A DNA stretch of 64,000 nt from Candidatus Pacearchaeota archaeon (GCA_023133415.1 JAGLWM010000004.1:3574-67573); one strand, 5' to 3'; positions 3,371 to 57,706 are shown, counted from the first letter of the stretch. Notes: generated from the letters alone by a model not told the origin. Program-made: numbers and translations.

Positions 3371-3580
3371 ATGAATATCACTATTGGTATTGTTATGAAT
3401 ATTCATAGTAAAAAAATAATCGGGTTGATAAAAAAAGAGAAAGTGGTAACGAGTTCTGAGGTTGCGGATGTGCTTGGGTTGTCGTGGAATACGGCAGATA
3501 AATATTTGATGGAACTCCTTATTGAAGGAAAAATCGATAGAATAAAAAAAGCAGGAGTGAATTTATGGGCGCTGAAATGA
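3371..3580 (+). CDS. small winged-helix DNA-binding protein
   Basis: VTSSEVADVLGLSWNTADKYLMELLIEGKIDRIKK is a wHTH-like pattern. It is the first gene of the surface island. Confidence 0.5.
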   Translation: MNITIGIVMNIHSKKIIGLIKKEKVVTSSEVADVLGLSWNTADKYLMELLIEGKIDRIKKAGVNLWALK

Positions 3581-4395
3581 GTGCTTCGCACAGTAATGGG
3601 CAATGGGCAATGGGCAATGGGCATGTTGCGCTCTGTAGAGCGCTTGGAAGAAAGAGAGGACAGGTAACGATTTTTATTATTGTGGGGATTGTGATTGTTG
3701 TGGGGATTATTGCTTTTGCTTTTCTAATGCGGGATGTTGATATTGGACCAAAGCCTGATATTGATCCAAAGAATATTGTTCGAAGTTGTGTTAATGATTT
3801 GGTTAAAGATTCTATTGATAAGATGCTTATGAATGGTGGGGAAATTTTGCCGACGAGGGCTATTTCTTATGAGGGAGCTGAATGGAATTATTTATGTTAT
3901 CAGGCAGATTTTTATCAAGGATGTTATAATATTCATCCTATGTTAGAGATACAGATTGAGAAGGAAATTGAAAAGGATAGTTTGAGTGGAGTGCAGAATT
4001 GTTTTGATGTTATGAGGCAGGATCTTGAAAATCGTGGATTTAGTGTTGGGGGTGGAGCGACTGATTATTCCATTGATTTGCTGCCTGGATATGTTGATGT
4101 CAAGCTAGAAAAAAGGGTTGAAATTTCTAAGGAGGGGAGTTCGCAGGTTTTTGATGATTTTGGGTTTGAGGTGGTTTCGCCGATTTATGATTTGGTTCGG
4201 GTGGCTCGGCTTATTGTGAATGATGAGTCGCAGTTTTGTAATTTTGAGTATAATGGTTATATGCTTTTATATCCGAAATATGATATTAGGAGAATTGATT
4301 ATCGAGATAGTAAGATTTATCGGTTGATTGATCGGAGGAGTGGGGATGAGTTTCGATTTGCTATAAGGAGCTGTGCATTTGCGCCTGGAATATGA
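3565..4395 (+). CDS. pilin-like protein with class III signal peptide (RKRGQ + hydrophobic helix)
   Basis: ..GRKRGQVTIFIIVGIVIVVGIIAFAFL. Paralog of 8687..9430. The real start may be ATG 3610. The 5' end overlaps hairpin and aatgggc x3 repeat modules. Confidence 0.65.
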   Translation: MGAEMSASHSNGQWAMGNGHVALCRALGRKRGQVTIFIIVGIVIVVGIIAFAFLMRDVDIGPKPDIDPKNIVRSCVNDLVKDSIDKMLMNGGEILPTRAISYEGAEWNYLCYQADFYQGCYNIHPMLEIQIEKEIEKDSLSGVQNCFDVMRQDLENRGFSVGGGATDYSIDLLPGYVDVKLEKRVEISKEGSSQVFDDFGFEVVSPIYDLVRVARLIVNDESQFCNFEYNGYMLLYPKYDIRRIDYRDSKIYRLIDRRSGDEFRFAIRSCAFAPGI

Positions 4396-7300: not shown

Positions 7301-8621
7301 GTGGGACTTGTCTGATGTTGATTATTCTTCTATGTCTGATAATATGATTTGTGATGACATTTTTGGATCGCCTTCTTCGTCTCAGGGATATCTATGTGAA
7401 ACTGTTGTTCCTCTGGCGGGTGGAGATAGCGTTTATTATATTAAGTGTATGGATCAACCGTGGCTTGATAACATGTATGACCGGAATGTAGTGAGCATGA
7501 TTTACAAACTGCGGAAGCCGGAGAAGAAGATTGAGATTGACTGGATTGAGCCAAGTCAAGATTTTGAGAGTGTGACTGATATGACGACGATTGAGTTGCA
7601 GGTTCAGACTTCGGGTGGGGGAGGATTGCATTATTGTTCGTTTTCGTTTTCGGGATATGATAAAATGATTAAGATGTTTGAAACTGGAGCGGATAGAATA
7701 CATGTTCAACCATTAGAGCGACCTATCGGGACTAGTAAGATTTATGTTGAGTGTACTGATGAGACTGGAGATAGTGTTCAATCATGGACTGAGTTTGAGA
7801 TTATTAAAAGGGGAATTGAAATGGAAATTGAGCCGATTGAGGATTCCGTGAGTGCATTTGAAGAGGTGATTGTTGATTTATTGGTTCGAACTTCGGGTGG
7901 AGGTAACGAGCATAATTGTTCTTATTCGCTTAGTGAGGATGGTGTGGGTATTGAGTTTGAGAAGCAGGGAAATGTTGGTGTTCATGAGCAGGGGGTTACC
8001 GTGGCTGTTGGTAGTCGAACGATTTATGTCGAATGTTGGGACGAGGCAGGAAATTCGGCAAAGGATGATGTTTCGTTTGAGATTATTAGAAAAGGGATGG
8101 AGATTGAGATTGAGCCGATTGAGGATTTCGTGAGTGGATTCAAAGAGGTGGTTGTTTATTTACTGGTTCGAACTTCGGGTGGAGGTAACGAGCATAATTG
8201 TTCTTATTCGCTTAGTGAGGATGGTGTGGGTATTGAGTTTGAGAAGCAGGGAAATGTCGGTGTTCATGAGCAGGGGGTTACCGTGGCTGTTGGTAGTCGA
8301 ACGATTTATGTCGAATGTTGGGACGAGGCAGGAAATTCGGCAAAGGATGATGTTTCGTTTGAGATTGCTTATGATACTTCGGTGCCACAGGTTGCCAGAG
8401 TTTGGCAATCTGACAAAAGGCTTTATGTTGTTACAATCGGGGAAACTAATTGTGAGTATTCGACAGTAAGCTGTAAGTTTAATTGGGGTGATGGTGAGTC
8501 TGCTGGAAGTGGACAGGAGCATGTCATTAATGTTATTCGTGGTAAGACATATTATATCAAGTGTGAGGATGAATTCGGGAATGTGCCTTCGGGGTGTTCG
8601 ATAATAGCGCATACGTTATAA
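4392..8621 (+). CDS. giant cysteine-rich membrane/surface protein (N-terminal Cys-rich ectodomain, Gly-rich multi-TM segment, Cys knot, Ig-like repeats)
   Basis: 1409-aa ORF whose ATGA overlaps the upstream stop. Signal/TM at the N-terminus, dozens of Cys (CGNC, GESWCV, EPCADYRNQIC). TM block GMGLAGIGYTAGLWATGG..FFWVGIALIVVSLFFGG. C-terminal repeated beta-rich modules begin D-x-T-A-P. Confidence 0.85.
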   Translation: MMREKIVASFELILMVMSLFAFAHGVYLSDEVFEKLDEKYKEARDSRLTEIVELSERIQPEKSKIGLIGAIFRRLREPMIQVVSAAETSSGIDELGCCFMAKDGSKCGTSEPGNCVADSPFAEGVLCAYASFCQKGCCFDEKLGIYDKNVLEADCSASWVGDPNCNMPEAKLGCCILGTSSIFETLGQCEIDTLARAMGDSPIVDWRSDLDEGQCFLMSATQDEGACILDGGVCTFGSGVDCYDYGGQFSEGFLCTSSLLNSNCEMTEQTTCVDGKDGVYFVDSCGNYANIYDSARVNDQSYWERVIDPENACGNDDIEGNADSKDCGNCNRFFGGICGSATEDNFDVDIGSFYCKGTSCMFDGVSYKNGESWCVYDGAIGNGDDVVGSRHWKYVCSQGVVQIEPCADYRNQICIQTNTFDVEGEEVEFRNAACIANNWRECIDLNGEEDGIDQCVDALNCRVENVDIADKFKFDVCLPRYPGGFSLIDERYMVTAESICGMADQICTVVREPKTWGGCKYVANKACLSEGFAQEMNDFCRGLGDCGGSVNILGEYSENYKVTKSPMLSQSWINKLKALAEPVPGQFAEVEDYSEYLEAAGVWANPEEAAESGDARGMADFQNIGMGLAGIGYTAGLWATGGKLALTGLMEIAGGSWSATVASFAGVAIGAGIGMIAGAYLAEYLELSPGGSMLMAVGGAMVGGAVVYFSLTPALLASPFFWVGIALIVVSLFFGGDDCPPIEVIFECKPWKAPLGGSDCEKCNEDLLKPCSEYRCNSLGSACELVNKGTVQEMCASSSDDGIPPVLSPQFGTISADEIYGDISDSRFSLTSIDGGCIDAYTPLMFGIVTNELAYCRFDMETKEFEEMDFDFGGNSYLYNHTTVFSLPDPSHGQSQGADWNGDLTLYIKCVDVHGHESPGFYTIDMCVNQGPDKTAPRIVATDPVNNAIVGFDVSEKSVSIFTNELSTCRWDLSDVDYSSMSDNMICDDIFGSPSSSQGYLCETVVPLAGGDSVYYIKCMDQPWLDNMYDRNVVSMIYKLRKPEKKIEIDWIEPSQDFESVTDMTTIELQVQTSGGGGLHYCSFSFSGYDKMIKMFETGADRIHVQPLERPIGTSKIYVECTDETGDSVQSWTEFEIIKRGIEMEIEPIEDSVSAFEEVIVDLLVRTSGGGNEHNCSYSLSEDGVGIEFEKQGNVGVHEQGVTVAVGSRTIYVECWDEAGNSAKDDVSFEIIRKGMEIEIEPIEDFVSGFKEVVVYLLVRTSGGGNEHNCSYSLSEDGVGIEFEKQGNVGVHEQGVTVAVGSRTIYVECWDEAGNSAKDDVSFEIAYDTSVPQVARVWQSDKRLYVVTIGETNCEYSTVSCKFNWGDGESAGSGQEHVINVIRGKTYYIKCEDEFGNVPSGCSIIAHTL
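7797..8360 (+). repeat. in-frame tandem duplication, 2 x 282 bp (94 aa module) inside the giant protein
   Basis: EII(K/R)..IEPIED..LLVRTSGGGNEHNCSYSLSEDGVGIEFEKQGNVGVHEQGVTVAVGSRTIYVECWDEAGNSAKDDVSF occurs twice. The 3' roughly 195 nt of each copy differ at one position by eye. An older diverged copy lies just upstream. Confidence 0.9.
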
Positions 8622-11350: not shown

Positions 11351-11370
11351 AAGGGAATGCTGTATTGTTT

Positions 11371-13182
11371 ATGGAGACTATTAGAGGTGTTGGGTTATTG
11401 CGGATTTGGTTGTTGGTTTTTGGAGTGTTTGGGTTTATGTTTGTGCTTACGGGGATGACGTCTGTTGTTGCGCAATCTGCAGTGTCGGAACCAAGTTTTT
11501 GTTGTGAGAAGACGGTAGATGGGGCTTGGTGTGTAAATGAGAAGGAAAGTGTTTGTGATGCTTCTTATAATGCTGCGCCTACCTCGTGTGAGACGACTTC
11601 ATATTGTAGGCTTGGGACTTGTTATGATTCGGTTGAGGGAATTTGTATGGAGAATACGCCGCAGAGAGTTTGTAACGATAATGGTGGGACTTGGGATGCT
11701 CGGGAGATTGAGGAGGTGGCACAGTGTCAGCTTGGATGTTGTGTGATTGCGGATCAGGCAGCATTTGTTTCGCTGGTTCGATGTAAGAGGTTGTCGACTT
11801 TGTATGGGGTTGAAAGTGATTATAGGACGGATGTTTTTAATGAGATTGATTGTATCGCTGAAGCACAGGCGCAAGATATTGGGGCGTGTGTTTATGAAAA
11901 GGAGTTTGAGAGAATTTGTGAGTTCACGACTCGGGGAGAATGTGGAGCTGGAGAGAGGGTTGAGACTTTGGATCAGACGAATATTAGTTTGGGTAGTGAG
12001 AGGACTTTTTATGAGGATTTTCTTTGTTCGGCGGAGGAGTTGAATACGGCTTGTGCGCGGCAGACTGGGACGACTTGTTATCAGGGGGATGTTTATTGGT
12101 TGGATTCTTGTGGGAATCGGGAGAATGTTTATTCGAGTGATAGAGTGAGGAGTTGGAATAATGGTCGAGTTGCGGAGGCGGATAAGGTTTGTAATAGGAA
12201 TGACGGGACGAATATGAATTGTGGGAATTGTGATTATTTGCTTGGGAGTCGGTGTGCGGAGTTTGAGGGCATAATTGGTGGACCTGCTGGGAGTGATCAT
12301 TATTGCCAGAAAACTGAGTGTGTGGATCGGGATGGAAACAAAAGGATGAATGGGGAGTCGTGGTGTGTGAGGGGCGCTTCGTTGATGGGTGACGGGTTGG
12401 ATGCTGTTGGATCAAGATATTTTAAGGAAGTTTGTATTGATGGCAATGTAAGGGTTGAACCATGCGCTGATTTTAGAAATGAGATCTGTTTAGAAGGGAG
12501 TATAGAAACAAGTGATGGTGATTTTGGGACGGCGGCTTGTCGTGTGAATAGATGGCAGGATTGTGTTTTGCAGGAAGAAGAGGAGGATTGTTTAAATATT
12601 GATCAGAGAGATTGTTTGTGGTTGCCTAGTGTTATGGGAATGATTTTGGGAGGTGGGCAGAGTGGAGAGGGGGTTAGTTATAGTAATCCGACAGCCAGTG
12701 AGCCGGCGTTTAGTAATCCTACGGCAACTGGGAGTGTTATTGCTTCGATAACTGGGTATTCGATTTTTGGGGATGATGAGGAAGAAGGGGAAGAGGGGAC
12801 TACGACGAATAGACCGGATGGAGTTTGTGTTGCGAATTTTCCTCCGGGTTTAGAGTTTTGGGAAGAGAGTAGTGCGCGGCAGATTTGTGGGCAGGCGAAT
12901 GCTAGGTGTGTTGTTGTTTATGAGAAAGGTTTGATTGGAGGGAGTAAAATTGTTGAGGGGAGAGAATGTTTGGAGGAGGTTTGGGCTTTGGGTGCGAATC
13001 GGGTTTGTGCTGGACTTGGGGATTGTGGCGGTTATGTGAATTATGGGGGTGTTTATAGCGATGACGGATATAAGTGGGTTGTTGATGGAGAAGATAAGGA
13101 GTTTAGTCCGAATGCAGTGAATATTGTGAGTGGTGGGTTTACGGGTCGGGTTATTAGTTTGGTCAGTGGATGGTTGGAATAG
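11371..13182 (+). CDS. secreted cysteine-rich protein, paralog of the N-terminal half of 4392..8621
   Basis: Shared blocks: Y(F/W)(V/L)DSCGN..N(I/V)Y, CGNC, NGESWCV, VGSR(H/Y)(W/F)K(Y/E)VC, EPCAD(Y/F)RN(Q/E)IC, GLGDCGG(S/Y)VN. Ends before any TM block. Confidence 0.8.
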   Translation: METIRGVGLLRIWLLVFGVFGFMFVLTGMTSVVAQSAVSEPSFCCEKTVDGAWCVNEKESVCDASYNAAPTSCETTSYCRLGTCYDSVEGICMENTPQRVCNDNGGTWDAREIEEVAQCQLGCCVIADQAAFVSLVRCKRLSTLYGVESDYRTDVFNEIDCIAEAQAQDIGACVYEKEFERICEFTTRGECGAGERVETLDQTNISLGSERTFYEDFLCSAEELNTACARQTGTTCYQGDVYWLDSCGNRENVYSSDRVRSWNNGRVAEADKVCNRNDGTNMNCGNCDYLLGSRCAEFEGIIGGPAGSDHYCQKTECVDRDGNKRMNGESWCVRGASLMGDGLDAVGSRYFKEVCIDGNVRVEPCADFRNEICLEGSIETSDGDFGTAACRVNRWQDCVLQEEEEDCLNIDQRDCLWLPSVMGMILGGGQSGEGVSYSNPTASEPAFSNPTATGSVIASITGYSIFGDDEEEGEEGTTTNRPDGVCVANFPPGLEFWEESSARQICGQANARCVVVYEKGLIGGSKIVEGRECLEEVWALGANRVCAGLGDCGGYVNYGGVYSDDGYKWVVDGEDKEFSPNAVNIVSGGFTGRVISLVSGWLE

Positions 13183-14137: not shown

Positions 14138-14157
14138 AAGGGAATGTTGTATTGTTT

Positions 14158-16242
14158 ATGAAGATTGGCATTAGAGGTATTGCATTGTTGCAAGTTTGGT
14201 TGTTGGTTTTTGGAGTTGTTGGATTTGTATTTATGATGGGGAGTGTGAGTGGGGTTAAGCATGGTCCATATATTGGGACTGTTGATATTACTCCTTATGA
14301 CATAATTGATTATTCCTCTGACCCTAAACCCTCTTCTCTTAATACCCCTGTTCCAGGGGAGACTGTTGTAAAGGAGACTGTTATAGAGGAGACTGTTGTA
14401 GAGGGGGCTGTTTCTGGTTCTGATTCTTATCTTTCTAAATTATTCGGATTACAAAAAGGTGGTGGACCGAGTGCTCTTGCTACTGGTTTGCAGTGGGCGG
14501 TAGTTGCTTATTTTGCTGGGACGATGATTGGAGATCTTGTCGGGTTGAATGAGGATAACAGTAAGGCTTTGGGTGCGGCGATGGCGGCTGGTGTTGGGAC
14601 TTATGTTTTTTTAGATACTTATACGAGTAGTGCTTTGCTTGGGGAAGGTGGTCAGCTTGCGTTTTTGGGAGCTAATCCTCCTTTGGTTGGCTTGGGTGTT
14701 GGAGTTGTTGTTTTTGCTTTGATGTATAAGGATGTTGATACGGAGGTTGTGACATTTAATTGTATGCCGTGGCAGGCGCCGATTGGTGGGGATGATTGTG
14801 AGATTTGTAATGATGAGGAGTTGCCTTGTAGTGAGTATAGATGTAGATCTTTAGGGCAGAATTGTGAGATTGTGAATGTGGGAACTACCGACGAGAAATG
14901 TGTGAATGTGAATCCTGGGGATGTTAATCCTCCGGTGATTGCGCCTAAGTATGATGCTTTGACTGCTGGATATGAATATCGGAATGTGAAGCTTTCGCCA
15001 CCGGGGCCTGGTTTTGAAATTGTGAATGTTGCATCCGCAGATGGTTGCTTGAAGGCTTTTACTCCGTTGGAATTTGGTTTGACTTTGAATGAGCCGGGAC
15101 AGTGTAAGATTGATTTTAATCATACGGAAAAGTTTGACGATATGGTTGCGTTTGTTGGGGGGAGTAATTTGTTTTCTTATAATCATAGTGAGGCATTTAG
15201 TTTGCCTGGGGCGAAGGATTTGAGTGATAATGGTTTTGTTTTGGAGAATGGGAAGGATTTGACTTTCTTTGTGAGGTGTCGAGATAAGAATGGGAATGAG
15301 AATTCGGCTGAGTATGCTATTAATTTTTGTATTGACCCTAGTCCTGATAATACGGCTCCAAAGATTGAGGCGACTTCGATTGTGAATGGTGGGTGTGTTG
15401 CGGAGGAGCAAGATACCGCGAATGTTGTGTTTTATACTAACGAGCCGGCGAATTGTAGATGGGATTTTCAGGATCAGGATTATGATTTGATGGCTAATGG
15501 CATGGATTGTGAGAATCAGTTTTGGCAGGCTAATGCGGCGCAGTTGTTTGGGTGTTCTGCGGAGTTGACTGGGATTGCGAGAGATGGCACGACTTTTTAT
15601 GTGAGATGTAAGGATCAGCCTGGGAAAGATGAGGCGGATAGGAATGAAAATAGGGAAAGTTTTGAGTTTAATTTGAGAGGAAGTGTGGGCTTGGTTTTGA
15701 GGAACTTGAAGCCGAATGAGACTATTTTTAGTGGGGTGAGTCCTAGTCCGATTGAGCTTTATGCCGAGACATTGTTTGGTTGTAATAATGGGAGAGCTAT
15801 TTGTGCGTGGTCTGATGATGGAACGAATTATATTCAGTTTTTTGATACGGATAATGAGGATGGGATTCATACTCAGAGATTAGATTTGGTGGGTGGTGAG
15901 CATAAATATTTTGTGAGATGTGTTGACGCTGGAGGAAATTTGGTTGAGGATGTTGCAAGTTTTAGGTTGGATATTGATGTGGATGCTCCGGTGATTGCGA
16001 GAGTTTATGAGGAAGGGCAGATGTTGAAGATTGTGACTGTTCGGAATAGTGAGTGTTCTTATAGTCATGATAATTGTGACTTTATGTTTGGTGAGGGGAT
16101 AGAGATGCCTTATGGGAATACGACTGTTCATGTTGCGGAGTGGGATGAGAAGAAGACTTATTATATCAAATGTCGAGATGAGTTTAGGAATGAGGACGCT
16201 GATTGTTCTATAGTGGTGCGGCCTACTAGTGATTTTATTTGA
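14158..16242 (+). CDS. membrane/surface protein, paralog of the C-terminal half of 4392..8621
   Basis: Gly-rich TM block, then F(N/E)C(M/K)PW(Q/K)AP(I/L)GG(D/S)DCE.CN..(L)PCSEYRC.SLG..CE(I/L)VN, and Ig-like modules with the ..CRWD.. motif. The signal peptide is almost identical to that of 11371..13182. Confidence 0.8.
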   Translation: MKIGIRGIALLQVWLLVFGVVGFVFMMGSVSGVKHGPYIGTVDITPYDIIDYSSDPKPSSLNTPVPGETVVKETVIEETVVEGAVSGSDSYLSKLFGLQKGGGPSALATGLQWAVVAYFAGTMIGDLVGLNEDNSKALGAAMAAGVGTYVFLDTYTSSALLGEGGQLAFLGANPPLVGLGVGVVVFALMYKDVDTEVVTFNCMPWQAPIGGDDCEICNDEELPCSEYRCRSLGQNCEIVNVGTTDEKCVNVNPGDVNPPVIAPKYDALTAGYEYRNVKLSPPGPGFEIVNVASADGCLKAFTPLEFGLTLNEPGQCKIDFNHTEKFDDMVAFVGGSNLFSYNHSEAFSLPGAKDLSDNGFVLENGKDLTFFVRCRDKNGNENSAEYAINFCIDPSPDNTAPKIEATSIVNGGCVAEEQDTANVVFYTNEPANCRWDFQDQDYDLMANGMDCENQFWQANAAQLFGCSAELTGIARDGTTFYVRCKDQPGKDEADRNENRESFEFNLRGSVGLVLRNLKPNETIFSGVSPSPIELYAETLFGCNNGRAICAWSDDGTNYIQFFDTDNEDGIHTQRLDLVGGEHKYFVRCVDAGGNLVEDVASFRLDIDVDAPVIARVYEEGQMLKIVTVRNSECSYSHDNCDFMFGEGIEMPYGNTTVHVAEWDEKKTYYIKCRDEFRNEDADCSIVVRPTSDFI

Positions 16243-16246
16243 AAAT

Positions 16247-16346
16247 CACTGGGGGTTCATAAAAGCTTTGCTTTTATGGAGGGGTTCAGCTTTGCTGGAG
16301 GGGTTCAATCACTTCGTGATTGGGGAGTTCATGCTTCGCATGGAGA
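16247..16346 (+). repeat. array of four GGTTCA-[variable stem]-CTT(T/C)G-[stem']-TGGAG hairpin units
   Basis: ttcataaaagctttgcttttatgga, ttcagctttgctgga, ttcaatcacttcgtgattgg, ttcatgcttcgcatgga. Confidence 0.8.
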
Positions 16347-16388: not shown

Positions 16389-16751
16389 ATGTGGAATATT
16401 GAGGGGTTAGATGTTTATAGAAAAATTTGTGATTTAATAAAGAAAGTTTATGGGTTAATTGGGATGCTGCCTAGCGAGGAGAAGTTTGCACTTGGTGATC
16501 AGATGCGGCGAGCTGTTACGAGTGTTAAATTGAATATTATTGAGGGGTCGGGGAAGAGGACGAGCAAAGAATTTATTTCTTATTTGAATAATGCAATGGG
16601 GAGTTTGCGTGAGGTTCGTGGGTGCGTTGAAGTTGGGGTTGATTTGGGATATTTTGTAAAGAGTGGGAGAAAAGAGACTAATGAGATTAAACGGATTGAA
16701 AGATTGTTGGCTGGATACATCAAATATGTTGAAAAGAAAAATGTTAAGTGA
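16389..16751 (+). CDS. four-helix-bundle protein (23S rRNA intervening-sequence protein / Avd-like family)
   Basis: DVYRKICDLIKKVYGLIGMLPSEEKFALGDQMRRAVTSVKLNIIEGSGKRTSKEFISYLNNAMGSLREV is the family hallmark pattern. Confidence 0.8.
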   Translation: MWNIEGLDVYRKICDLIKKVYGLIGMLPSEEKFALGDQMRRAVTSVKLNIIEGSGKRTSKEFISYLNNAMGSLREVRGCVEVGVDLGYFVKSGRKETNEIKRIERLLAGYIKYVEKKNVK

Positions 16752-16868
16752 GTTACAAAAGCTTTGCTTTTGTGGAGGGGTTCAATCACTTCGTGATTGG
16801 AGAGGTTCAGCTTTGCTGGAGGGGTTCAATCACTTCGTGATTGGGAAGGTTCATGCTTCGCATGGAGA
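16752..16868 (+). repeat. second array (five units) of the same hairpin family, flanking the four-helix-bundle gene
   Basis: Units as at 16247-16346 in a different order. ORF 16663..16881 is an artefact of it. Confidence 0.8.
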
Positions 16869-16886
16869 CTTGGTGGATTAAGTAGT

Positions 16887-17530: not shown

Positions 17531-17579
17531 GGAAGTAGAAAGATTTAAAATAACTATTATTGTGGTTATTATAACCTTT

Positions 17580-18098
17580 ATGGTGATTATTATGGAATTT
17601 AAGATTTTTATTGAGAAGAGCCCATTGGCTCGAAAAGTTTTTGGGAAACGGGAGATTGTGATTATTCGTAAACAGATTGCTGGGATTAATTTGACGCAGT
17701 CGGAGAAAAATAGGCTTTCCAGGGATATTCGACCGAAGTTAAGATTTATTCTGGAGGCTTCAAAATTTAGAGATGAGTTTGATTTGAAGAAGGGAAGTGA
17801 GAATAGAAAAATTGTTGAGAACGTTTTGGAGGTAATTAGGAAAGATGAGGATTTTGGGAAAATTTTGGAGATTTGGTTGTTTGGCTCGATGGTAGAGAAC
17901 AAGATGACGATTCGTTCTGATGTCGATGTTTGTGTTTTATTTGATAGGATTGGTCAAGTTGGTGCTGATAAGTTTAGATTGAGGATTTTGGGATGGCTTA
18001 GTGATAAGGCTGATGTTCAAGTGTTTAATATTTTGCCTAATAAGATTAAAAAGTCAATATTAAAAAGTCATAGGGTATTGTATAAGAGAAATGGGTGA
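17580..18098 (+). CDS. mntA: nucleotidyltransferase-domain protein (MNT-type antitoxin candidate) with N-terminal extension
   Basis: LFGSMVENKMTIRSDVDVCVLF (GS..SDxD) motif. Start uncertain (17562, 17580 or 17592). Confidence 0.7.
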   Translation: MVIIMEFKIFIEKSPLARKVFGKREIVIIRKQIAGINLTQSEKNRLSRDIRPKLRFILEASKFRDEFDLKKGSENRKIVENVLEVIRKDEDFGKILEIWLFGSMVENKMTIRSDVDVCVLFDRIGQVGADKFRLRILGWLSDKADVQVFNILPNKIKKSILKSHRVLYKRNG

Positions 18099-18492
18099 TA
18101 GAAAAGGTGATAAGATTGTTGAGATAGAAGAGTATTCGGATAAGTTGACTGAATTTTTTCCTTCTGATTTTAAAAATTATACTTCTGACGAGAAAACCAA
18201 AGCGGCATGTGAGAGATATTTTGAGAAGATTGTCGAGAGTGTTGTTGATTTGGCATTCTTTACTATTAAAGAAGAAAATTTTAGGGCGCCAGAATTTGAT
18301 AGGGAGGCATTTGAAATTTTAGCTGGGAAAAATCTAATTTCTGAGAAACTTTCTTTGAATCTTGGCAATGCGAAATCTATGCGAAATTGGTTGGCACACA
18401 GATATGGGAAAGTTGACGATAAAAAGGTGTTTGAGGCTATTCGTGATAAGTTGTTTTATGATGTTAGAGATTTTTTGGAGGCAATAAAATGA
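18091..18492 (+). CDS. hepT: HEPN/DUF86-domain protein (HepT-type toxin candidate)
   Basis: RNWLAHRYG (R-x4-H-x-Y) motif. Overlaps the MNT gene by 8 nt. Confidence 0.75.
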   Translation: MGDRKGDKIVEIEEYSDKLTEFFPSDFKNYTSDEKTKAACERYFEKIVESVVDLAFFTIKEENFRAPEFDREAFEILAGKNLISEKLSLNLGNAKSMRNWLAHRYGKVDDKKVFEAIRDKLFYDVRDFLEAIK

Positions 18493-19424
18493 AAAGGGGG
18501 CAGTTTAGTTTTGTCTGGTTGTTTGCGATTTTGGCGGGTGGGGCGATTTTGGCTTTGGCGATTTGGGGTGCGATGCAAGCTGGAGGCACATTGAGATTTC
18601 AAAGTGAGACCGAGGCTGCCAAGAGTATTTCGATTTTGACTGATCCTTTGCAGACTGGTTTTGCCGAAGGGTCTTTTGGGAAGATTTCTTTTCGGCAGAA
18701 AGCTCGATTAAATAATATTTGTTTGGATTCTGGATTTGGGAAGAATGATATTTCGGTCGCAATACGAAGCAGTGTTGGGAAAGAATGGAATTTGGCTGGA
18801 GGTGCGACATCTGTTCACAATAAATATATCTTTTCTGAAGAGGTGAATGAGGGTTTTGATTTTTTTGTTTTTTCTAAGTCTTTTAATTTTCCGTATGAGG
18901 TTAGTGATTTGATTTTTTTGAGTTCTGGAAATTATTGTTTTTTGAATTCGCCCGAAAGTGTTGAGGAGGATGTTTTGGGATTGGGAATTGATAATGTTGT
19001 TCTTGATAATTGCAGTATTGGGGATATTCGAGTTTGTTTTGGAGGCGGTGTTGATTGTGATATTTTTGTTTATGGGTCGTGTTCGGGAAATTGTGATTCA
19101 ATTTATGATGAGGGGACTGTTGCGAAGGAGGGTGGGGATTCTGATTATGTTGGGAATTTGATGTATGCTGCGATTTTTTCTGATAAGGAAGTTTATGATT
19201 GTAATGTTAGACGGTTGTTGTACCGAGCGAAAAGTATTGCAGATATTTTTGTGGAGAAGAGTGATTTGATGAATGCTCGGAATTGTAATACTAATTTGAA
19301 GGGTGATTTGATTGTTTGGAGTGCGATGCTGGAGGGTGCTGGTTCTGAGGATTTGGTTTTGTTGAAGGGGTTTGCTAAGAATTTAGGAAGGAAGGAAGAC
19401 AGGGAGTTGTGTAGGGTATGGTAA
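18489..19424 (+). CDS. pilin-like protein with class III signal peptide (MKRGQF)
   Basis: MKRGQFSFVWLFAILAGGAILALAIWG. ATGA overlap with hepT. Confidence 0.7.
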   Translation: MKRGQFSFVWLFAILAGGAILALAIWGAMQAGGTLRFQSETEAAKSISILTDPLQTGFAEGSFGKISFRQKARLNNICLDSGFGKNDISVAIRSSVGKEWNLAGGATSVHNKYIFSEEVNEGFDFFVFSKSFNFPYEVSDLIFLSSGNYCFLNSPESVEEDVLGLGIDNVVLDNCSIGDIRVCFGGGVDCDIFVYGSCSGNCDSIYDEGTVAKEGGDSDYVGNLMYAAIFSDKEVYDCNVRRLLYRAKSIADIFVEKSDLMNARNCNTNLKGDLIVWSAMLEGAGSEDLVLLKGFAKNLGRKEDRELCRVW

Positions 19425-19588
19425 AAAAGCTTTGCTTTTTTACCGGTGGTCGGGGGTCGGTGGTCGGTAGTCGGGATGACTTGGGCAACTTGCGGGGGTC
19501 GGGAGTTGGGGGTCGTGAGTCGTGGGTCGTGAGTCGTGGGTTGGGGGTCGTGAGTCGTGGGTTGGGGGTCGGGGGGAAGGGGGGGCAG
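19425..19588 (+). repeat. G-rich GGTCGG-type modular repeat (hairpin aaaaagctttgcttttt, 26-nt core, gacttgggcaacttg module, gtcgtgagtcgtgg subrepeats, G runs)
   Basis: Core ggtcgggggtcggtggtcggtagtcgg at 19448-19473 is identical to 57612-57637. Open in frame with the downstream CDS (track ORF 19418..20074). Confidence 0.85.
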
Positions 19589-20074
19589 ATGAAGATTATG
19601 CAGATGTCGTTTATGATTATTGCTGTGTTTTTCTTTTTTATTTTGGTTGGTTTGTTTTTTTTGGGAATTGCATTTAAAGATATTCGGAGTGGGGCTGAGC
19701 AGCTGCAAAGGGAGCAGGCTATTTCTTCTTTGGAGGTTATTGCTGGGATGAATGAGCTTGCTTATTATTCGGGTGAGTCGATGAGTGTTGATGAGGATAA
19801 GTTGCGGATTATGTCGGGGAGCTTGAGCGTGGATTATGGAGAATTTTGGCCGATTGCTTCGTTGGAATTTCATAAGGTTTATCCGGCTTTTGATGAAGTT
19901 GTGAAATGTCCTGCTGTGGGGTGTAATTATTACGAGATTTTTGATTCTGGGCAGAGGGATGTTGAGAAGTTTTCTTCTTATGTTTCTATTTGTAAAAGGG
20001 TTAGGGAGTTTGATAGTGTTTATAATCGGTGTGAGATTGGGAAAATTGTTGTGGGCATGAGGATTTTAGAATGA
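19589..20074 (+). CDS. membrane-anchored pilin-like protein; possibly translated from 19418 with a repeat-encoded leader ending KGGQ
   Basis: MKIMQMSFMIIAVFFFFILVGLFFLGIAF. The alternative ATG 19418 overlaps the upstream stop by 7 nt. Confidence 0.6.
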   Translation: MKIMQMSFMIIAVFFFFILVGLFFLGIAFKDIRSGAEQLQREQAISSLEVIAGMNELAYYSGESMSVDEDKLRIMSGSLSVDYGEFWPIASLEFHKVYPAFDEVVKCPAVGCNYYEIFDSGQRDVEKFSSYVSICKRVREFDSVYNRCEIGKIVVGMRILE

Positions 20075-20604
20075 AATTGAGAAATGAAATAAATAATATG
20101 AAAAATAAAATAAATAGAAAGGGGCAGCAGGAGATTGTGGGGTTTGTTTTGATTGTGGTCTTGGTGATGGTTGGGCTGATGGTTTTTTTGGTGATTTCGG
20201 TTCGGGATGTTACGGAGACGGAAGATAGTCTTGAGGTTTTGAATATGATTGGTGTTTTGATGAGGACGACTAGTGAGTGCGCGATTGTTTATGAGCCGGA
20301 TTATGATGATTTTGAGGATTTGTTTAAGAGTTGTCATAAAAATGATCGGTGTAGTAATTTGGATAGGTCTGCTTGTGATTATTTGAACGAGAGTTTTGGT
20401 GATGTTGTTGATGCTCTGATGAGAAGTGAGGCGGATGTTGAGGCTTGGGATGTTGAGTTTTTTGTTAAGGATGGAGGTGAGATGCTTGGTTTTTGGGATT
20501 CGGAATCTGGTAATTGCACGGGACGAGTTGAGGGGGCGCAGAGGAGTATAGTTTCTGGAGGAGAGAGTTTGGTTGTTAGAATGAGGGTCTGTCGTGGGAG
20601 TTAG
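20071..20604 (+). CDS. pilin-like protein with class III signal peptide (NRKGQQ)
   Basis: ..KINRKGQQEIVGFVLIVVLVMVGLMVFLVI. ATGA overlap with the upstream gene. Confidence 0.7.
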   Translation: MKLRNEINNMKNKINRKGQQEIVGFVLIVVLVMVGLMVFLVISVRDVTETEDSLEVLNMIGVLMRTTSECAIVYEPDYDDFEDLFKSCHKNDRCSNLDRSACDYLNESFGDVVDALMRSEADVEAWDVEFFVKDGGEMLGFWDSESGNCTGRVEGAQRSIVSGGESLVVRMRVCRGS

Positions 20605-20658
20605 GGGTCGGTAGTTGGGGGTGGGTAGTCGGTAGTCGGTGACTTGTTCGGCTTTGCT
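20604..20658 (+). repeat. G-rich GGTCGG repeat + gacttgttcggctttgct module
   Basis: aggggtcggtagttgggggtgggtagtcggtagtcggtgacttgttcggctttgct. Confidence 0.75.
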
Positions 20659-25083: not shown

Positions 25084-25098
25084 CAGTGGATTGTTTTT

Positions 25099-25189
25099 TT
25101 TTAGGATGAGAAGGATAGAATCGGGGGTCGGTGCTCGGTAGTCGGAGGTCGGGAGACTTGGGCAACTAATTTTTAGGATGAGAAGGATA
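25099..25189 (+). mobile_element. 53-bp G-rich GGTCGG element flanked by a 19-bp direct duplication that contains the start codon
   Basis: ttttaggatgagaaggata at 25099-25117 and 25171-25189. Between them: gaatcgggggtcggtgctcggtagtcggaggtcgggagacttgggcaactaat. Confidence 0.7.
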
Positions 25190-25807
25190 AAGAGTGTTGT
25201 GGATAAGGAAAGCGTTCAGCGGCGGAATAGTATGATTATGGGAGTTGTGATGGTTGGTATTTTGGTTTTTGCGAGTTTGGGATATTCTTTGATGAGTGCG
25301 GATGGGGAGGATGAGAATGTTGTTAGGGAGTTGGGTTTTGATTTTGTTCGGGATGGTGGACTTTGGAAGGTTGAGATTGCTGGGGGAATTTTTGGTTTTC
25401 AGTATTTGCCTTCGGAGGTTGATGATATTGATGTTAATTTGACGAAAGAGTTGGGTGAATATTCTGGGGAAGTTTTGTATTTTGTGAATCCGAATGAGGG
25501 CGTGGGTGAGGTTTTGAACAATCTTGGACGCTATATTTTGAGGTACCAGGAATCTTGCTTGCAGCAAGATTCTGGGGAGTCGAGGGTCGGGGGTCGGGGG
25601 TCGGATGACTTGGGCAACTTGACTAGTAAGGGGAGTGAATATGTTTGTGAGGGGGATTTGCCGGTGAAAGATTGTAGTAGTAATTTGATTATTTTTGAAA
25701 GTGGGAATGAGACGAGGGTTTATGGAGATGGGGGTTGTGTTCATATTGTTGGGGATAGTATTCGGGGCGTCGATGCTTTTTTATATGAGGTTTTGAATGT
25801 AAAGTGA
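25178..25807 (+). CDS. membrane-anchored hypothetical protein carrying an in-frame G-rich repeat insertion
   Basis: N-terminal TM MIMGVVMVGILVFASLGY. Nucleotides 25575-25625 (ESRVGGRGSDDLGNLT) are a copy of the GGTCGG/gacttgggcaacttg element. Confidence 0.6.
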   Translation: MRRIKSVVDKESVQRRNSMIMGVVMVGILVFASLGYSLMSADGEDENVVRELGFDFVRDGGLWKVEIAGGIFGFQYLPSEVDDIDVNLTKELGEYSGEVLYFVNPNEGVGEVLNNLGRYILRYQESCLQQDSGESRVGGRGSDDLGNLTSKGSEYVCEGDLPVKDCSSNLIIFESGNETRVYGDGGCVHIVGDSIRGVDAFLYEVLNVK

Positions 25808-31779: not shown

Positions 31780-31822
31780 AAAATAATATAGGGGAAGTGG
31801 TTTTTAAGTTTTTAAGAATTTG

Positions 31823-32062
31823 GAATCGTTCGATTTCGTCAGGCTCTTTCTTTTTTAGAAAAAAAGAAATTCCCTGGAAGTAGAAAAAACTATAATTCCA
31901 ATGCTTCGCATTGGTTTTGACGAAATCTTTTTAGAATCGTTCGATTTCGTCAGGCTTTTTCTTTTTTAGAAAAAAAGAAATTCCCTGGAAGTAGAAAAAA
32001 CTATAATTCCAATGCTTCGCATTGGTTTTGACGAAATCTTTTTAGAATCGTTCGATTTCGTC
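31823..32062 (-). repeat. 111-bp tandem repeat (2 full copies + partial) that includes the last about 20 nt and stop codon of sepF
   Basis: gaatcgttcgatttcgtc recurs at 31823, 31934 and 32045. The unit contains tttctttttt-aga-aaaaaagaaa and ccaatgc-ttc-gcattgg hairpins, closed by tttcgtca/tgacgaaa. Confidence 0.9.
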
Positions 32063-34755: not shown

Positions 34756-34756
34756 G

Positions 34757-34838
34757 ATTTCTTTCTTTTTAGAAAAAATAAATTTCTCGCAAGTAGAAAA
34801 ACTTTTCTTCCAAAACTTCGTTTTGATTTAATTCCATG
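34757..34838 (-). mobile_element. 82-bp hairpin element between duplicated CATG sites at the rpl11 start; encodes a 22-codon uORF
   Basis: CATG at 34753-34756 and 34835-34838. TATA (rc of gtttaaaaga, 34858-34867) lies about 25 nt upstream of the distal ATG. uORF MELNQNEVLEEKFFYLREIYFF*, with its stop 13 nt before the rpl11 ATG. Confidence 0.7.
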
Positions 34839-35546: not shown

Positions 35547-35547
35547 G

Positions 35548-35629
35548 ATTTCTTTCTTTTTAGAAAAAAGAAATTTCTCGCAAGTAGAAAAACTTTTCTT
35601 CCAAAACTTCGTTTTGATTTAATTCCATG
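35548..35629 (-). mobile_element. second copy of the start-codon element (spt5)
   Basis: CATG at 35544-35547 and 35626-35629. TATA-like tcataaaaat at 35646-35655. uORF MELNQNEVLEEKFFYLREISFF*. Confidence 0.7.
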
Positions 35630-37041: not shown

Positions 37042-37042
37042 G

Positions 37043-38949: not shown

Positions 38950-39004
38950 ATTTTAGGAAATCAAGTTTTTAAGAATTTATATATTAAATTAATAGAGTTA
39001 TTTT

Positions 39005-57253: not shown

Positions 57254-57706
57254 TTAAAGTTTTGCTTTAGAATTAAACCAGTTTAATTTATCCCATTTGT
57301 ATAATGTTTTGATATGGCATTCTGCTTTTTGTGCGTCGGATTTTGATTCGCATTGTTTTGTTCGGAGTAGTTTTTTGAATTTTTTGTTTCGGACATATTT
57401 ACTACCTTTACCTTCGGCGTGTATTTTCATTCGTCTGTCTAGGTCGTTTGTGACGCCGGTATAGAAAGAGCCGTCTTGGCATTCAAGGATGTAGACGAAC
57501 CAAGGAGTTGGTGCTTGGTGGTTGGGAATTGGGACCGCTCGGCACACCCCAAATACTCTTGGTAGTTCTGCACACCCCAAATTGCAGGGTATTGGGGCGA
57601 GTTCTGGGGCGGGTCGGGGGTCGGTGGTCGGTAGTCGGTGATTTGTTCGGCACTTGTTAGTTTTAAAAATCATTAATTTCCTTTCTGATGTTGGAACTTC
57701 TACCAT
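57254..57706 (-). CDS. GIY-YIG nuclease-family protein whose N-terminal roughly 65 aa are encoded by repeat modules
   Basis: WFVYILECQDGSFYTGVTNDLDRRMKIHAEGKGSKYV. There is no ATG/GTG/TTG between the repeats and the domain. ATG 57706 overlaps the upstream stop (TAATG). Confidence 0.65.
   Translation of the reverse strand: MVEVPTSERKLMIFKTNKCRTNHRLPTTDPRPAPELAPIPCNLGCAELPRVFGVCRAVPIPNHQAPTPWFVYILECQDGSFYTGVTNDLDRRMKIHAEGKGSKYVRNKKFKKLLRTKQCESKSDAQKAECHIKTLYKWDKLNWFNSKAKL

What the first reader, a model, noticed from the sequence alone, without database searches (positions are those of the whole stretch)
19425..19588. GGTCGG-type repeat read through in frame: possible repeat-encoded pre-pilin leader, an in-CDS copy and a nuclease N-terminus
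An identical 26-nt core (ggtcgggggtcggtggtcggtagtcgg) occurs at 19448-19473 and 57612-57637. Variants occur at 20604-20640, 25121-25150 and 25585-25606. At 19418-19588 the repeat is open in frame from an ATG that overlaps the previous gene's stop. The frame runs into a hydrophobic pilin-like N-terminus and ends ..GGKGGQ just before it. The clear pilins here carry (K/R)GQ at the same position, so the repeat-encoded peptide could be a removable leader. At 25575-25625 the element sits in frame inside a CDS and reads GRGSDDLGNL, the same frame as GSRDDLGNL at 19.4 kb. At 57.6 kb the reverse complement encodes part of the N-terminal extension of a GIY-YIG protein. Repeated elements that stay translatable in several hosts are unusual.
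Basis: partly seen in the sequence, partly recalled or inferred. Interest (0 to 1): 0.65.

Follow-up and report, generated by a model that had tools for sequence, protein, structure and literature searches.

The report
Repeat modules translated inside archaeal genes
In this tiny-genome (DPANN) archaeon, short "hairpin plus 7-base tandem repeat" DNA modules that normally sit just after stop codons have also landed inside the first codons or a loop of several genes, and they are kept in frame, so one pilin-like surface protein carries a 56-residue repeat-encoded leader instead of the usual 4-10 residues.

Summary
The 27-nt core is identical at 19448-19474 and 57612-57638, with 0 matches expected by chance, and all listed variants exist.

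The repeats belong to a family of modules: a hairpin, then 4-12 units of 7 nt, then a tail. These modules sit at gene junctions in this Pacearchaeota-like genome.

Orthologous loci show that ATG 19418 is the ancestral start codon of the pilin-like gene. It lies in the stop/start overlap ATGGTAA. The normal leader reads M-V-[KR]-x-G|Q-MKIMQM. About 150 nt of module DNA lies between that ATG and the conserved K-G-G|Q site, in frame. The other two frames carry 3 stops each.

Across 23 related genomes with long inserts at this junction, 15 stay open from the ancestral start. The other 8 each have a new ATG next to the cleavage site.

- The copy at 25.5 kb lies in a variable loop between two invariant cysteines of a conserved protein, so it must be translated.
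- The GIY-YIG extension also starts at the ancestral ATG.
- I found a fourth case at 3577-3663.
- Five inserts are flanked by 20-27-nt direct duplications.

The closest precedents are Rickettsia palindromic elements and REP-like elements. Which start codon is actually used remains untested.

The parts
19418..19420 (+). Ancestral start codon ATG of the pilin-like gene. It overlaps the upstream gene's TGG-TAA (19419-19424).
   Evidence: The same [AG]TGGTRA overlap start is present in about 45 orthologous loci. The empty site L081 reads ATGGTAACAGGAAAGGGTCAAATG = MVTGKG|QMK.
19420..19444 (+). Hairpin GGTAAAAAAGC-TTT-GCTTTTTTACC: an 11-bp stem, a TTT loop and a T6 run. Its 5' arm is the host stop/start overlap plus Lys codons.
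   Evidence: Fold gives -15 kcal/mol, z = -3.6. Equivalent A-run/T-run hairpins occur in L083, L028, L009, L017, L003 and L004, and the flanking stem bases co-vary.
19445..19475 (+). Heptad array 1, (GGTCGGN)x4. It contains the 27-nt core 19448-19474, identical to 57612-57638.
19475..19492 (+). Module tail GATGACTTGGGCAACTTG, read as D-D-L-G-N-L.
   Evidence: The same tail follows heptads at 25152-25166 and 25604-25621, and in L083, L010, L168, L196 and L178.
19493..19576 (+). Heptad array 2: about 12 units with a 21-nt super-period, GTCGTGGGTTGGGGGTCGTGA.
   Evidence: period 21 x 2.9; period 7 x 11.9.
19577..19588 (+). AAG GGG GGG CAG = K-G-G|Q, the predicted class III signal-peptide cleavage motif. 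Q at 19586 is the +1 residue.
   Evidence: G-Q-M-K-I-[MQ]-Q-M is invariant or nearly so in 22 aligned homologs. Leaders in homologs end KGQ/RGQ/KAQ/GGQ.
19589..20074 (+). Body of the pilin-like protein: a hydrophobic N-terminal helix followed by a Cys-containing domain.
   Evidence: 271 homologs, mostly 162-175 aa. The AF2 model shows helix 3-56 plus beta strands but has low confidence.
20596..20658 (+). Module overlapping the end of ORF 20071-20604. The stop TAG 20602-20604 lies in the heptad array. Tail: TGACTTGTTCGGCTTTGCT.
   Evidence: Ortholog L081 ends ...KICTLV* with no array.
25098..25189 (+). A 52-nt module (25118-25169: heptads plus tail GAGACTTGGGCAACTAA). It is flanked by a 20-nt direct duplication, TTTTTAGGATGAGAAGGATA, at 25098-25117 and 25170-25189. 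The duplication copies the start codon of ORF 25178. The left copy opens an 11-codon decoy ORF.
   Evidence: The empty site in L081 is ...TTTATATTTGATAAATTATTTTTTATTATTATGAGAAAAATAAAG.
25549..25621 (+). In-CDS module: hairpin 25549-25573 (5' arm = codons E-S-C), heptads 25574-25604, tail 25604-25621. It is translated as LQQDSGESRVGGRGSDDLGNL inside ORF 25178-25807.
   Evidence: 143 homologs cover 100% of the ORF. The module fills a variable loop between the invariant cysteines C127 and C157, and the minimal loop is 5 aa. Homologous DNA is present in L009, L010, L168 and L196, and in degenerate form in L028 and L081. Hairpin fold: -17.3 kcal/mol.
57504..57706 (-). N-terminal extension of the GIY-YIG ORF (ATG 57704-57706 overlaps the upstream stop as TAATG). 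It contains two heptad arrays in reverse orientation (57504-57534 and 57612-57640, including core 57612-57638) and the tail 57640-57653.
   Evidence: Orthologs are 82-90 aa and start MEEKPWFVY 1-2 nt after the same upstream gene. L208 and L207 carry in-frame inserts from the same ATG.
3577..3663 (+). A second prepilin-like leader that carries a module, not in the original finding. ATG 3577 overlaps the upstream TGA as ATGA. It holds hairpin 3581-3591, (AATGGGC)x4 at 3595-3622 and the box ATGTTGCGCTCTGTAGAGCGC at 3623-3643. R-K-R-G|Q follows at 3649-3663.
   Evidence: Homologs align from query residue ~25 to their own residue 2-11, so their leaders are 4-12 aa against 28 aa here.

Best explanation
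The GGTCGG repeats are copies of a family of short composite modules. Each has a small hairpin with a T-rich loop. Then come 4-12 tandem 7-nt units (GGTCGGN here; GTTTTTG, AATGGGC and GGGATTT elsewhere in the window; other units in other species). Last comes a semi-conserved tail (GAYTTGGGCAAC, or AYTTGTTCGGCTTTGC, or a TGTTGCGCTCT box).

The modules populate gene junctions of this compact DPANN (Pacearchaeota/Nanoarchaeia-type) genome, usually starting within a few bases of a stop codon. They are inserted DNA: relatives show empty sites, and some copies are flanked by 20-27-nt direct duplications of the target.

Start codons here often overlap the preceding stop (ATGGTAA, ATGA, TAATG). A module entering such a junction therefore lands in the first codons of the downstream gene. 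Only three kinds of insertion survive: those that keep the frame open from the ancestral ATG, those whose target duplication regenerates the gene's 5' end, and those that bring a new ATG.

- At 19418-19588, two modules extend the leader of a class III (prepilin-type) signal peptide from about 4-10 to 56 residues. The leader is cut off at K-G-G|Q by the prepilin peptidase (inferred), so its sequence is nearly unconstrained and the insertion is tolerated.
- At 25549-25621, an older copy is tolerated in a surface loop between two conserved cysteines.
- At 57504-57700, reverse-oriented copies form a dispensable N-terminal extension of a GIY-YIG nuclease.

Shown: the anatomy, the orthologous start codon, the frame statistics and the necessity of translation for the in-CDS copy. 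Inferred: use of ATG 19418, leader cleavage, and the mode of insertion.
For: **Anatomy and family.**. Period-7 arrays are the dominant tandem class: 25 in 1.2 Mb of window plus relatives, 10 of them in the window, against 0-8 for periods 4-12.

**Ancestral start and cleavage motif.**

**Frame test at the pilin junction.**
- 16 of 23 long inserts are in frame (binomial P = 4e-4 against 1/3), and 15 of 23 are open from the ancestral start.
- For the 20 inserts tabulated, the two alternative frames are open in only 2 of 40 cases.
- All 8 exceptions have a new ATG giving a short leader next to [KR]-[GA]-Q.

**No promoter possible in 19445-19588.** The longest A/T run is 2 nt.

**In-CDS copy.**

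**GIY-YIG.**
- The ancestral ATG is retained.
- In L208, reverse heptads are in frame with no alternative start codon.
- The window and L207 extensions differ by indels that are multiples of 3.

**Second prepilin leader with a module.**

**Direct duplications of 20-27 nt.** They flank the inserts in the window (25098/25170), L009, L010, L083 and L084. In 400 random controls the maximum was 12 nt, with one case of 16.

**Class III signal peptides.** An RGQ-type site and the role of the +1 Gln in archaeal pilins are described in PMC4187195.
Against: - There are no transcript, ribosome or protein data. In-frame GTG/TTG codons at -42 to -8 lie in G-rich, Shine-Dalgarno-like sequence and could serve as starts, which would shorten the leader to as few as 8 residues.
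- The T6 hairpin at 19420-19444 looks like an archaeal terminator and could reduce read-through.
- The pilin-like proteins match no Pfam or NCBIfam model, and the AF2 model has low confidence. "Prepilin" therefore rests on the motif and on the hydrophobic N-terminus.
- A 56-residue class III leader is far longer than characterised ones, which are around 12 aa (PMC4187195).
- Most module copies show no flanking duplication, and no transposase or integrase candidate was seen in the window.
- The loci in the frame test are different species, but some inserts may share ancestry (for example L009/L017, and window/L083).
Confidence: 0.72

Rival explanations
1. The repeat is mainly a transcribed but untranslated spacer. 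The pilin-like gene initiates at an internal near-cognate codon inside array 2, for example TTG 19562, which gives MGVGGKGG|Q. Only the last ~8-19 leader residues would then be repeat-encoded, and the long ORF from ATG 19418 would be incidental.
For: In-frame TTG/GTG codons lie at -8, -12, -15 and -19, preceded by G-rich SD-like runs. An 8-residue leader matches the family norm. The hairpin buries the ATG region.
Against: Inserts at this junction keep the frame from the ancestral ATG far more often than chance allows. Several in-frame relatives have no nearby ATG (L001, L027, L080). In the parallel GIY-YIG case, L208 has no alternative start of any kind. The stop/start overlap needed for termination-reinitiation coupling is intact (PMC10666635).
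Confidence: 0.2
2. The open frame is a compositional artefact of an A-poor repeat, and the gene really starts at ATG 19589.
For: Heptad arrays alone are stop-free in about 78% of frames. The plus strand is strongly G/T-rich.
Against: The G|Q that precedes MKIMQM is invariant in 22 aligned homologs and is always preceded by a leader. The two alternative frames of this 168-nt stretch each carry 3 stops. No ortholog starts at the MKIMQM methionine.
Confidence: 0.03
3. The heptad arrays in leader-coding regions act as contingency loci. Slipped-strand gain or loss of one 7-nt unit shifts the frame and switches the surface protein on or off, as the CTCTT repeats do in the signal-peptide region of Neisseria opa genes (own knowledge).
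For: The unit length is not a multiple of 3. Near-perfect arrays of 4 or more units lie in the translated leaders of two prepilin-like genes in one window. Unit sequence and number differ between species.
Against: The same modules are mostly intergenic and also occur next to non-surface genes. The arrays are short (4-5 units). No copy-number variants of one locus were observed. Frame retention is explained more simply by purifying selection.
Confidence: 0.08
4. The modules are functional cis-elements kept for a nucleic-acid-level role, and their translation is a side effect. Candidate roles are bidirectional oligo-T terminators or mRNA 3'-end protectors, like REPs, or G-quadruplex-forming (GGN5)n tracts.
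For: The modules begin right after stop codons at 3581, 16243, 16752, 17414, 19425, 24788, 26514 and 30801. The hairpins are stable. The hairpin is retained inside the CDS across species, with one compensatory pair in L028. Some tails run into TATA-like A/T-rich sequence (L028, L178).
Against: All window copies are G/T-rich on the plus strand whatever the orientation of the neighbouring genes (27281 and 57608 lie next to minus-strand genes). This argues against an RNA-level role tied to the upstream gene. Heptads in L004 and L026 are not G-rich, so a G-quadruplex is not a general property. Whole modules fold no better than shuffles (z = -0.4 and +0.6).
Confidence: 0.3

Closest known systems
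Rickettsia palindromic elements (RPEs)
   Same: Both are short palindrome-containing repeats inserted in frame into several unrelated protein-coding genes. Both are retained and translated, often at positions that the protein fold tolerates (PMC10969869).
   Different: RPEs are ~100-150 bp bacterial elements with a family-specific conserved peptide. The modules here are archaeal composites of a hairpin plus a species-specific 7-nt tandem array. They are mostly intergenic, and their coding insertions cluster at stop/start overlaps and signal-peptide leaders. No sequence similarity to RPEs was tested or is claimed.
REP/BIME elements and mobile terminator-like elements (e.g. pneumococcal SPRITE)
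   Same: Both are multi-copy short hairpins placed close to gene ends (PMC12306157, PMC10969869).
   Different: REPs seldom overlap coding regions and are linked to RAYT transposases. No such gene was seen in the window. The modules also carry heptad arrays, tails and, in some copies, 20-27-nt flanking duplications.
MITEs of archaea (Sulfolobus, Halobacterium, Haloquadratum)
   Same: Both are small, non-coding, multi-copy insertions, sometimes flanked by direct target duplications, and occasionally fused in frame to host ORFs (PMC10969869).
   Different: The modules have no terminal inverted repeats. The duplications of 20-27 nt are far longer than the 2-10 bp typical of IS-derived MITEs (own knowledge). 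No parent IS was identified.
Archaeal class III (type IV prepilin-like) signal peptides cleaved by PibD/FlaK/EppA
   Same: Both have a basic leader, a small residue at -1, Gln at +1 as in EppA substrates (RGQI in EpdA), and then a ~20-residue hydrophobic helix that stays on the mature protein (PMC4187195).
   Different: The window leaders are 56 aa and 28 aa, against about 4-12 aa in relatives and in characterised pilins. The extra residues are encoded by repeat DNA. Cleavage was not shown, and there was no profile-HMM match.
Neisseria opa-type phase variation (pentamer repeats in the signal-peptide coding region; own knowledge)
   Same: Both have tandem repeats whose unit is not a multiple of 3, lying in the leader-coding region of a surface protein.
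   Different: No copy-number polymorphism was observed here. The arrays are short, and the same modules are mainly intergenic.

Membership tests
Archaeal class III (prepilin-type) signal peptide | Cleavage motif: a small residue (G/A) at -1, usually K/R at -2, and Q at +1 in the EppA-type subclass | tested here: met
   K-G-G|Q at 19577-19588 and R-K-R-G|Q at 3649-3663. Homologs show KGQ/RGQ/KAQ.
Archaeal class III (prepilin-type) signal peptide | About 20 hydrophobic residues directly after the cleavage site | tested here: met
   QMKIMQMSFMIIAVFFFFILVGLFFLGIAF. AF2 predicts a helix at residues 3-56 (this part has pLDDT 89-92).
Archaeal class III (prepilin-type) signal peptide | Short leader, typically 3-15 residues | tested here: not met
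   56 residues from ATG 19418, and at least 8 from any alternative start. Orthologs have 4-10.
Archaeal class III (prepilin-type) signal peptide | Match to a curated pilin or class III signal model, or a pilin fold | tested here: inconclusive
   No Pfam or NCBIfam hit even at E<=10. The AF2 mean pLDDT of 58 is too low for a fold search.
Archaeal class III (prepilin-type) signal peptide | Processing by a prepilin peptidase | not testable with these tools
   Needs N-terminal sequencing or a peptidase assay.
MITE | Terminal inverted repeats | tested here: not met
   The alignments of copies show a 5' hairpin, an array and a tail. The two ends are not inverted copies of each other.
MITE | Target-site duplication | tested here: inconclusive
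   20-27-nt direct duplications flank 5 inserts. Most copies have none, and the length is atypical.
REP-like extragenic palindrome | A short palindromic stem-loop, many copies, near gene ends, rarely coding | tested here: inconclusive
   The hairpins and the post-stop position fit. However, 5 of about 13 window arrays lie in translated sequence, and the arrays and tails are extra features.
REP-like extragenic palindrome | An associated RAYT (Y1 HUH) transposase | not tested
   None was found among the window ORFs scanned. The rest of the genome was not available.
RPE-like in-frame coding repeat | The same repeat family inserted in frame in several unrelated ORFs and retained in orthologs | tested here: met
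   Four ORFs in the window (3577, 19418, 25178 and 57706 on the minus strand). The in-CDS copy is shared by at least 6 species.
Phase-variable contingency locus | Copy-number polymorphism of the repeat within a population | not testable with these tools
   No reads or near-identical strains were available. The closest ortholog is 81% identical.

The most novel reading that the evidence does not exclude
The hairpin-heptad modules may be a previously undescribed class of non-autonomous insertion element of DPANN archaea. On this reading they integrate with unusually long (20-27 bp) target duplications, keep one orientation relative to the replication strand, and carry species-specific 7-nt arrays. 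They repeatedly remodel the 5' ends of genes. Cleavable prepilin leaders would act as safe landing sites, and the non-triplet arrays could make those surface proteins phase-variable.
Probability: 0.3. Interest if true: 0.75.

Novelty: new variant of a known kind. Interest (0 to 1): 0.6.

Why it matters
If the reading holds, four things follow.

- **Gene structure.** It shows how very compact archaeal genomes with overlapping stop and start codons absorb selfish or structural repeats. Only frame-preserving insertions survive, or ones whose target duplication restores the start. Removable signal-peptide leaders, surface loops and N-terminal tails become the tolerated sites.
- **Annotation.** It gives a concrete rule for DPANN genomes: long G/S/R/V-rich N-terminal "extensions" can be real.
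- **Biochemistry.** It provides a natural test of how long a class III leader a prepilin peptidase can accept.
- **Mobile elements.** It flags a widespread, undescribed module family with 20-27-nt flanking duplications whose insertion mechanism is unknown.

Tried and rejected
- **Metagenome DNA scan.** I scanned with GTCGGN{1,3}GAYTTGGGCAAC. The pattern was too permissive: 117 of 120 hits were chance matches in unrelated high-GC contigs. Only L168, L178 and L196 were true family members. A genome-wide census of copies was therefore not achieved.
- **Rfam.** At gathering thresholds it found only tRNAs.
- **Protein profiles.** Pfam and NCBIfam gave nothing for any pilin-like protein, even at E<=10.
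- **Structure.** The AF2 model of the mature protein was too uncertain (pLDDT 58) to justify a fold search.
- **G-quadruplex idea.** I considered (GGN5)n quadruplexes as the common denominator. I dropped this as a general explanation because L004 and L026 carry non-G-rich heptads in the same architecture.
- **Host-derived hairpin arm.** I considered that the hairpin's 5' arm is always host sequence. That holds at 19420 and 25549, but the GCGAAGC-TTT-GCTTCGC hairpins recur unchanged at six sites and so belong to the element.
- **Local tblastn.** I searched the 85 related loci for the GIY-YIG gene and for orthologs of ORF 3577. The loci do not reach those genes.
- **Literature.** Searches for DPANN or Pacearchaeota intergenic repeats and for heptanucleotide repeats found no description of these modules.
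- **L11 and Spt5 extensions.** I checked whether they were further cases. They are acidic low-complexity tails, not modules.

Full report

Yes. The core GGTCGGGGGTCGGTGGTCGGTAGTCGG occurs identically at 19448-19474 and 57612-57638, which is 27 nt. A 3-mismatch copy lies at 25119-25145. No match appeared in 100 dinucleotide-preserving shuffles.

Tandem Repeats Finder and the repeat finder show that these are period-7 arrays. They lie at 19444-19474, 19493-19575 (with a 21-nt super-period), 20599-20640, 25121-25152, 25575-25604 and 57612-57640.

ORF 19418-20074 (218 aa) opens at an ATG that overlaps the upstream gene's TGG-TAA. It reads MVKKLCFFTGGRGSVVGSRDDLGNLRGSGVGGRESWVVSRGLGVVSRGLGVGGKGG|QMKIMQMSFMIIAVFFFF....

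**2. What organism and what context?**

Homologs of the window proteins come from MAGs labelled Pacearchaeota, Woesearchaeota, Nanoarchaeota or simply "archaeon". The window is therefore from a DPANN archaeon.

The plus strand is strongly G- and T-rich, with a GC skew of about 0.5. The bias is present at third codon positions of genes on both strands: +0.66 for plus-strand genes and -0.52 on the coding strand of minus-strand genes. It is thus a replication-strand mutational bias.

The window holds several proteins with a short basic N-terminus, [KR]-G-Q and a hydrophobic stretch. They start at 3577, 8687, 18489, 19418 and 20071. These are class III (prepilin-type) signal peptides by motif. None matches a Pfam or NCBIfam model.

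**3. The repeat is one member of a module family.**

Aligning copies gives a common plan with three parts:
- a small hairpin with a T-rich loop (GCGAAGC-TTT-GCTTCGC, AAAAAGC-TTT-GCTTTTT, GTGC-TTC-GCAC, and others);
- 4-12 tandem heptads (GGTCGGN, GTTTTTG, AATGGGC, GGGATTT);
- a tail (GAYTTGGGCAAC, or a TGTTGCGCTCT..GTTCGCGCG box followed by ATTTGTTCGGCTTTGC).

Period 7 is the dominant tandem period. There are 25 arrays of at least 4 units in 1.2 Mb of window plus 85 related loci, and 10 of them are in the 64-kb window. Periods 4-12 give 0-8.

Modules usually begin within a few bases of a stop codon: 3581, 16243, 16752, 17414, 19425, 24788, 26514 and 30801.

All window copies are G/T-rich on the plus strand, even next to minus-strand genes (27281, 57608).

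Relatives carry the same architecture with other heptads: GGTTGTC, TTGGTCG, GGAGTTT, GGTGACA, GGGGTTT, AGGTCGC and CAGAACT. The non-G-rich units in L004 and L026 argue against G-quadruplex formation as the common property.

**4. The pilin-like leader.**

The family has 271 homologs, mostly 162-175 aa. Their N-termini read M-x(1-6)-[KR/x]-[GA]-Q-M-K-I-[MQ]-Q-M. G, Q, M, I, Q and M are invariant in a 22-sequence alignment.

In about 45 orthologous loci the start codon is the [AG]TG of an [AG]TGGTRA overlap with the upstream gene's C-x-x-W-stop. An example is ATGGTGAGGGGGCAGATGAAA = MVRG|QMK. The closest relative, L081 at 81% identity, has ATGGTAACAGGAAAGGGTCAAATG = MVTGKG|QMK.

ATG 19418 is therefore the ancestral start. 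About 150 nt of module DNA now lies between it and K-G-G|Q: the 3' arm of the hairpin, array 1, the tail and array 2. A start at 19589 would delete the invariant G|Q and is excluded.

All in-frame start candidates lie upstream of or inside the repeat: ATG at -56, and GTG/TTG from -42 to -8. The leader is therefore repeat-encoded whichever one is used.

The stretch 19445-19588 has no A/T run longer than 2 nt. That is the minimum for the window, where the median is 8. It cannot hold a TATA box, so the repeat is part of an mRNA that starts upstream.

**5. Is frame openness more than chance?**

At the level of arrays, no. About 78% of the six frames of the arrays are stop-free by composition.

At the level of whole inserts, yes.
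- In the window, frame 0 has 0 stops and the other two frames have 3 each.
- Of 23 loci with a long distance (at least 45 nt) between the ancestral start and the Q codon, 16 are in frame (binomial P = 4e-4 against 1/3).
- 15 of the 23 are open from the ancestral start.
- For the 20 inserts tabulated, the two alternative frames are open in only 2 of 40 cases. One of those two frames always carries the upstream gene's stop.
- Every one of the 8 exceptions has a new ATG giving a short leader right before [KR]-[GA]-Q.

The inserts belong to several unrelated sequence families, so most are independent events. This is the signature of selection for translation from the ancestral ATG unless a new start is supplied.

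**6. The in-CDS copy.**

ORF 25178-25807 is one conserved gene, with 143 homologs at 100% coverage.

The module lies between two invariant cysteines, C127 in RYQE[AS]C and C157 in CxGDLPVKDC. The minimal loop there is 5 residues (LVNSS), and the length varies from 5 to more than 40.

The DNA is hairpin GGAATCTTGC-TTGCA-GCAAGATTCT, whose 5' arm is the E-S-C codons, followed by four heptads and the tail GGATGACTTGGGCAACTTG. The same arrangement is present in L009, L010, L168 and L196, and is degenerate in L028 and L081.

Translation through it is unavoidable, and the insertion is old. The shared DDLGNL reading with the 19.4-kb copy is weak evidence, because that tail is open in 2 of 3 frames.

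**7. The GIY-YIG N-terminus.**

Orthologs are 82-90 aa and start M-x(2-4)-[KR]-P-W-F-V-Y-I-L-E-C, 1-2 nt after the same ~212-aa upstream gene.

In the window, the ATG at 57706 overlaps that gene's stop (TAATG) and corresponds to the ancestral ATG. About 190 nt then follow in frame up to P-W-F-V-Y. They contain two reverse-oriented heptad arrays and a tail.

L208 has five reverse heptads in frame from the same ATG and no alternative start codon of any kind. The extension in L207 is homologous to the window's and differs by indels of whole codons.

The database gene call for the window protein starts at M12 (139 aa). The exact start here remains open.

**8. A fourth case and the duplications.**

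ORF 3577-4395 is another prepilin-like gene. Its ATG overlaps the upstream TGA as ATGA. Its 28-residue leader contains a hairpin, (AATGGGC)x4 and the TGTTGCGCTCT box, all in frame before R-K-R-G|Q. Its homologs have leaders of 4-12 residues.

Five inserts are flanked by long direct duplications of the target:

| Locus | Duplication | Call |
|---|---|---|
| Window 25098-25117 / 25170-25189 | 20 nt, copying the start codon of ORF 25178 | 10 (empty site in L081) |
| L010 | 26 nt | 21 |
| L083 | 21-24 nt | 41 |
| L084 | 27 nt | 42 |
| L009 | 20 nt, in a different prepilin-like gene | 76, 77 |

In 400 random controls the longest flanking repeat was 12 nt, with one case of 16.

In the prepilin cases the duplication spans G|Q plus the next ~7 codons. 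The downstream copy therefore regenerates an intact cleavage site, and the upstream copy plus the insert becomes leader.

This pattern fits insertion followed by survivorship. It also shows that the modules are inserted DNA rather than local slippage products. The enzyme and the mechanism are unknown. No transposase-like gene was seen in the window.

**9. Comparison with known systems.**

- Rickettsia palindromic elements are the closest precedent for repeats retained in frame in unrelated genes (PMC10969869).
- REP and terminator-like elements are the closest for post-stop hairpins (PMC12306157).
- Archaeal class III signal peptides with an RGQ-type site and +1 Gln are the relevant processing system (PMC4187195).
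- Overlap-dependent termination-reinitiation is documented in archaea (PMC10666635).

The modules differ from all of these in four ways: the heptad arrays, the single strand orientation, the long duplications, and the concentration of coding insertions at stop/start overlaps and cleavable leaders. I found no paper describing them.

**10. Verdict.**

Start-codon usage and leader cleavage remain untested.

The finding is a new variant of a known kind, namely in-frame repeat insertions. It also carries a moderately likely, more novel component: the module family itself and its mode of insertion.

Noticed in passing
window 1-64000 (whole window): Extreme strand asymmetry. GC skew is about 0.4-0.6 over most of the window, and third-codon GC skew is +0.66 in plus-strand genes and -0.52 on the coding strand of minus-strand genes. 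This points to a very strong replication-strand mutational bias (G/T-rich on the plus strand) rather than a coding effect.
   Followed up: partly
window 3577-3663: A second prepilin-like gene with a hairpin plus (AATGGGC)x4 plus TGTTGCGCTCT-box module in frame in its 28-residue leader. Homologs have 4-12-residue leaders.
   Followed up: yes
window 25098-25189: A 20-nt direct duplication, TTTTTAGGATGAGAAGGATA, flanks a 52-nt module and duplicates the start codon. The left copy sits at the conserved TATA-proximal position and opens an 11-codon decoy ORF (MRRIESGVGAR*) ahead of the real start at 25178.
   Followed up: partly
window 16261-16345 and 16757-16872 (around ORF 16389-16751): A gene for a 23S rRNA intervening-sequence protein (PF05635, bAvd-like) is bracketed by near-identical ~90-nt arrays of small hairpins separated by TGGAGGGGTTCA. 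The same gene family sits directly next to the pilin-like gene in L083 and L084, which suggests it moves together with these junction repeats.
   Followed up: no
window 34747-34838, 35538-35629, 37034-37125, 31819-32040; L013 9867-10004: A different repeat family (TTTCTTTCTTTTTAGAAAAAAGAAATTTCTCGCAAGTAGAAAAA...) lies upstream of the L11, Spt5 and FtsZ genes here. In other genomes (L013, P0043, P0097, P0104) it is read in frame as LSFLEKKKF..SRKNYNSLAS inside the same pilin-like leader.
   Followed up: partly
window 20602, 24785, 26511, 30798: The stop codon TAG of four plus-strand genes is the first triplet of the module's 5' end (TAGGGGAGCGAAGC / TAGGGGTCGG). Modules may therefore donate stop codons and trim C-termini.
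   Followed up: no
window 17562-18492: A nucleotidyltransferase/HepT-like toxin-antitoxin pair (PF18765/PF01909 plus PF01934) lies immediately upstream of the three-gene pilin-like cluster. Its stop overlaps the first pilin-like start (ATGA).
   Followed up: no
window 7793-8356: A 282-nt tandem duplication (94% identity) lies inside the 1409-aa cysteine-rich ORF 4392-8621 and duplicates a ~94-residue domain. ORFs 11365-13182 and 14152-16242 share an N-terminal segment with each other (repeat D12).
   Followed up: no
window 39002-39214, 42542-42754, 43802-44014: Three copies of a 213-nt repeat, two of them identical, flank the 982-aa ORF 39414-42362 and neighbouring genes in the low-skew region. 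Their nature is unknown.
   Followed up: no
window 34123-34755 and 34872-35546 (minus strand): Ribosomal protein L11 carries a ~75-residue acidic/lysine-rich C-terminal tail, and Spt5/NusG carries a ~70-residue acidic N-terminal extension. These are not module-derived.
   Followed up: partly
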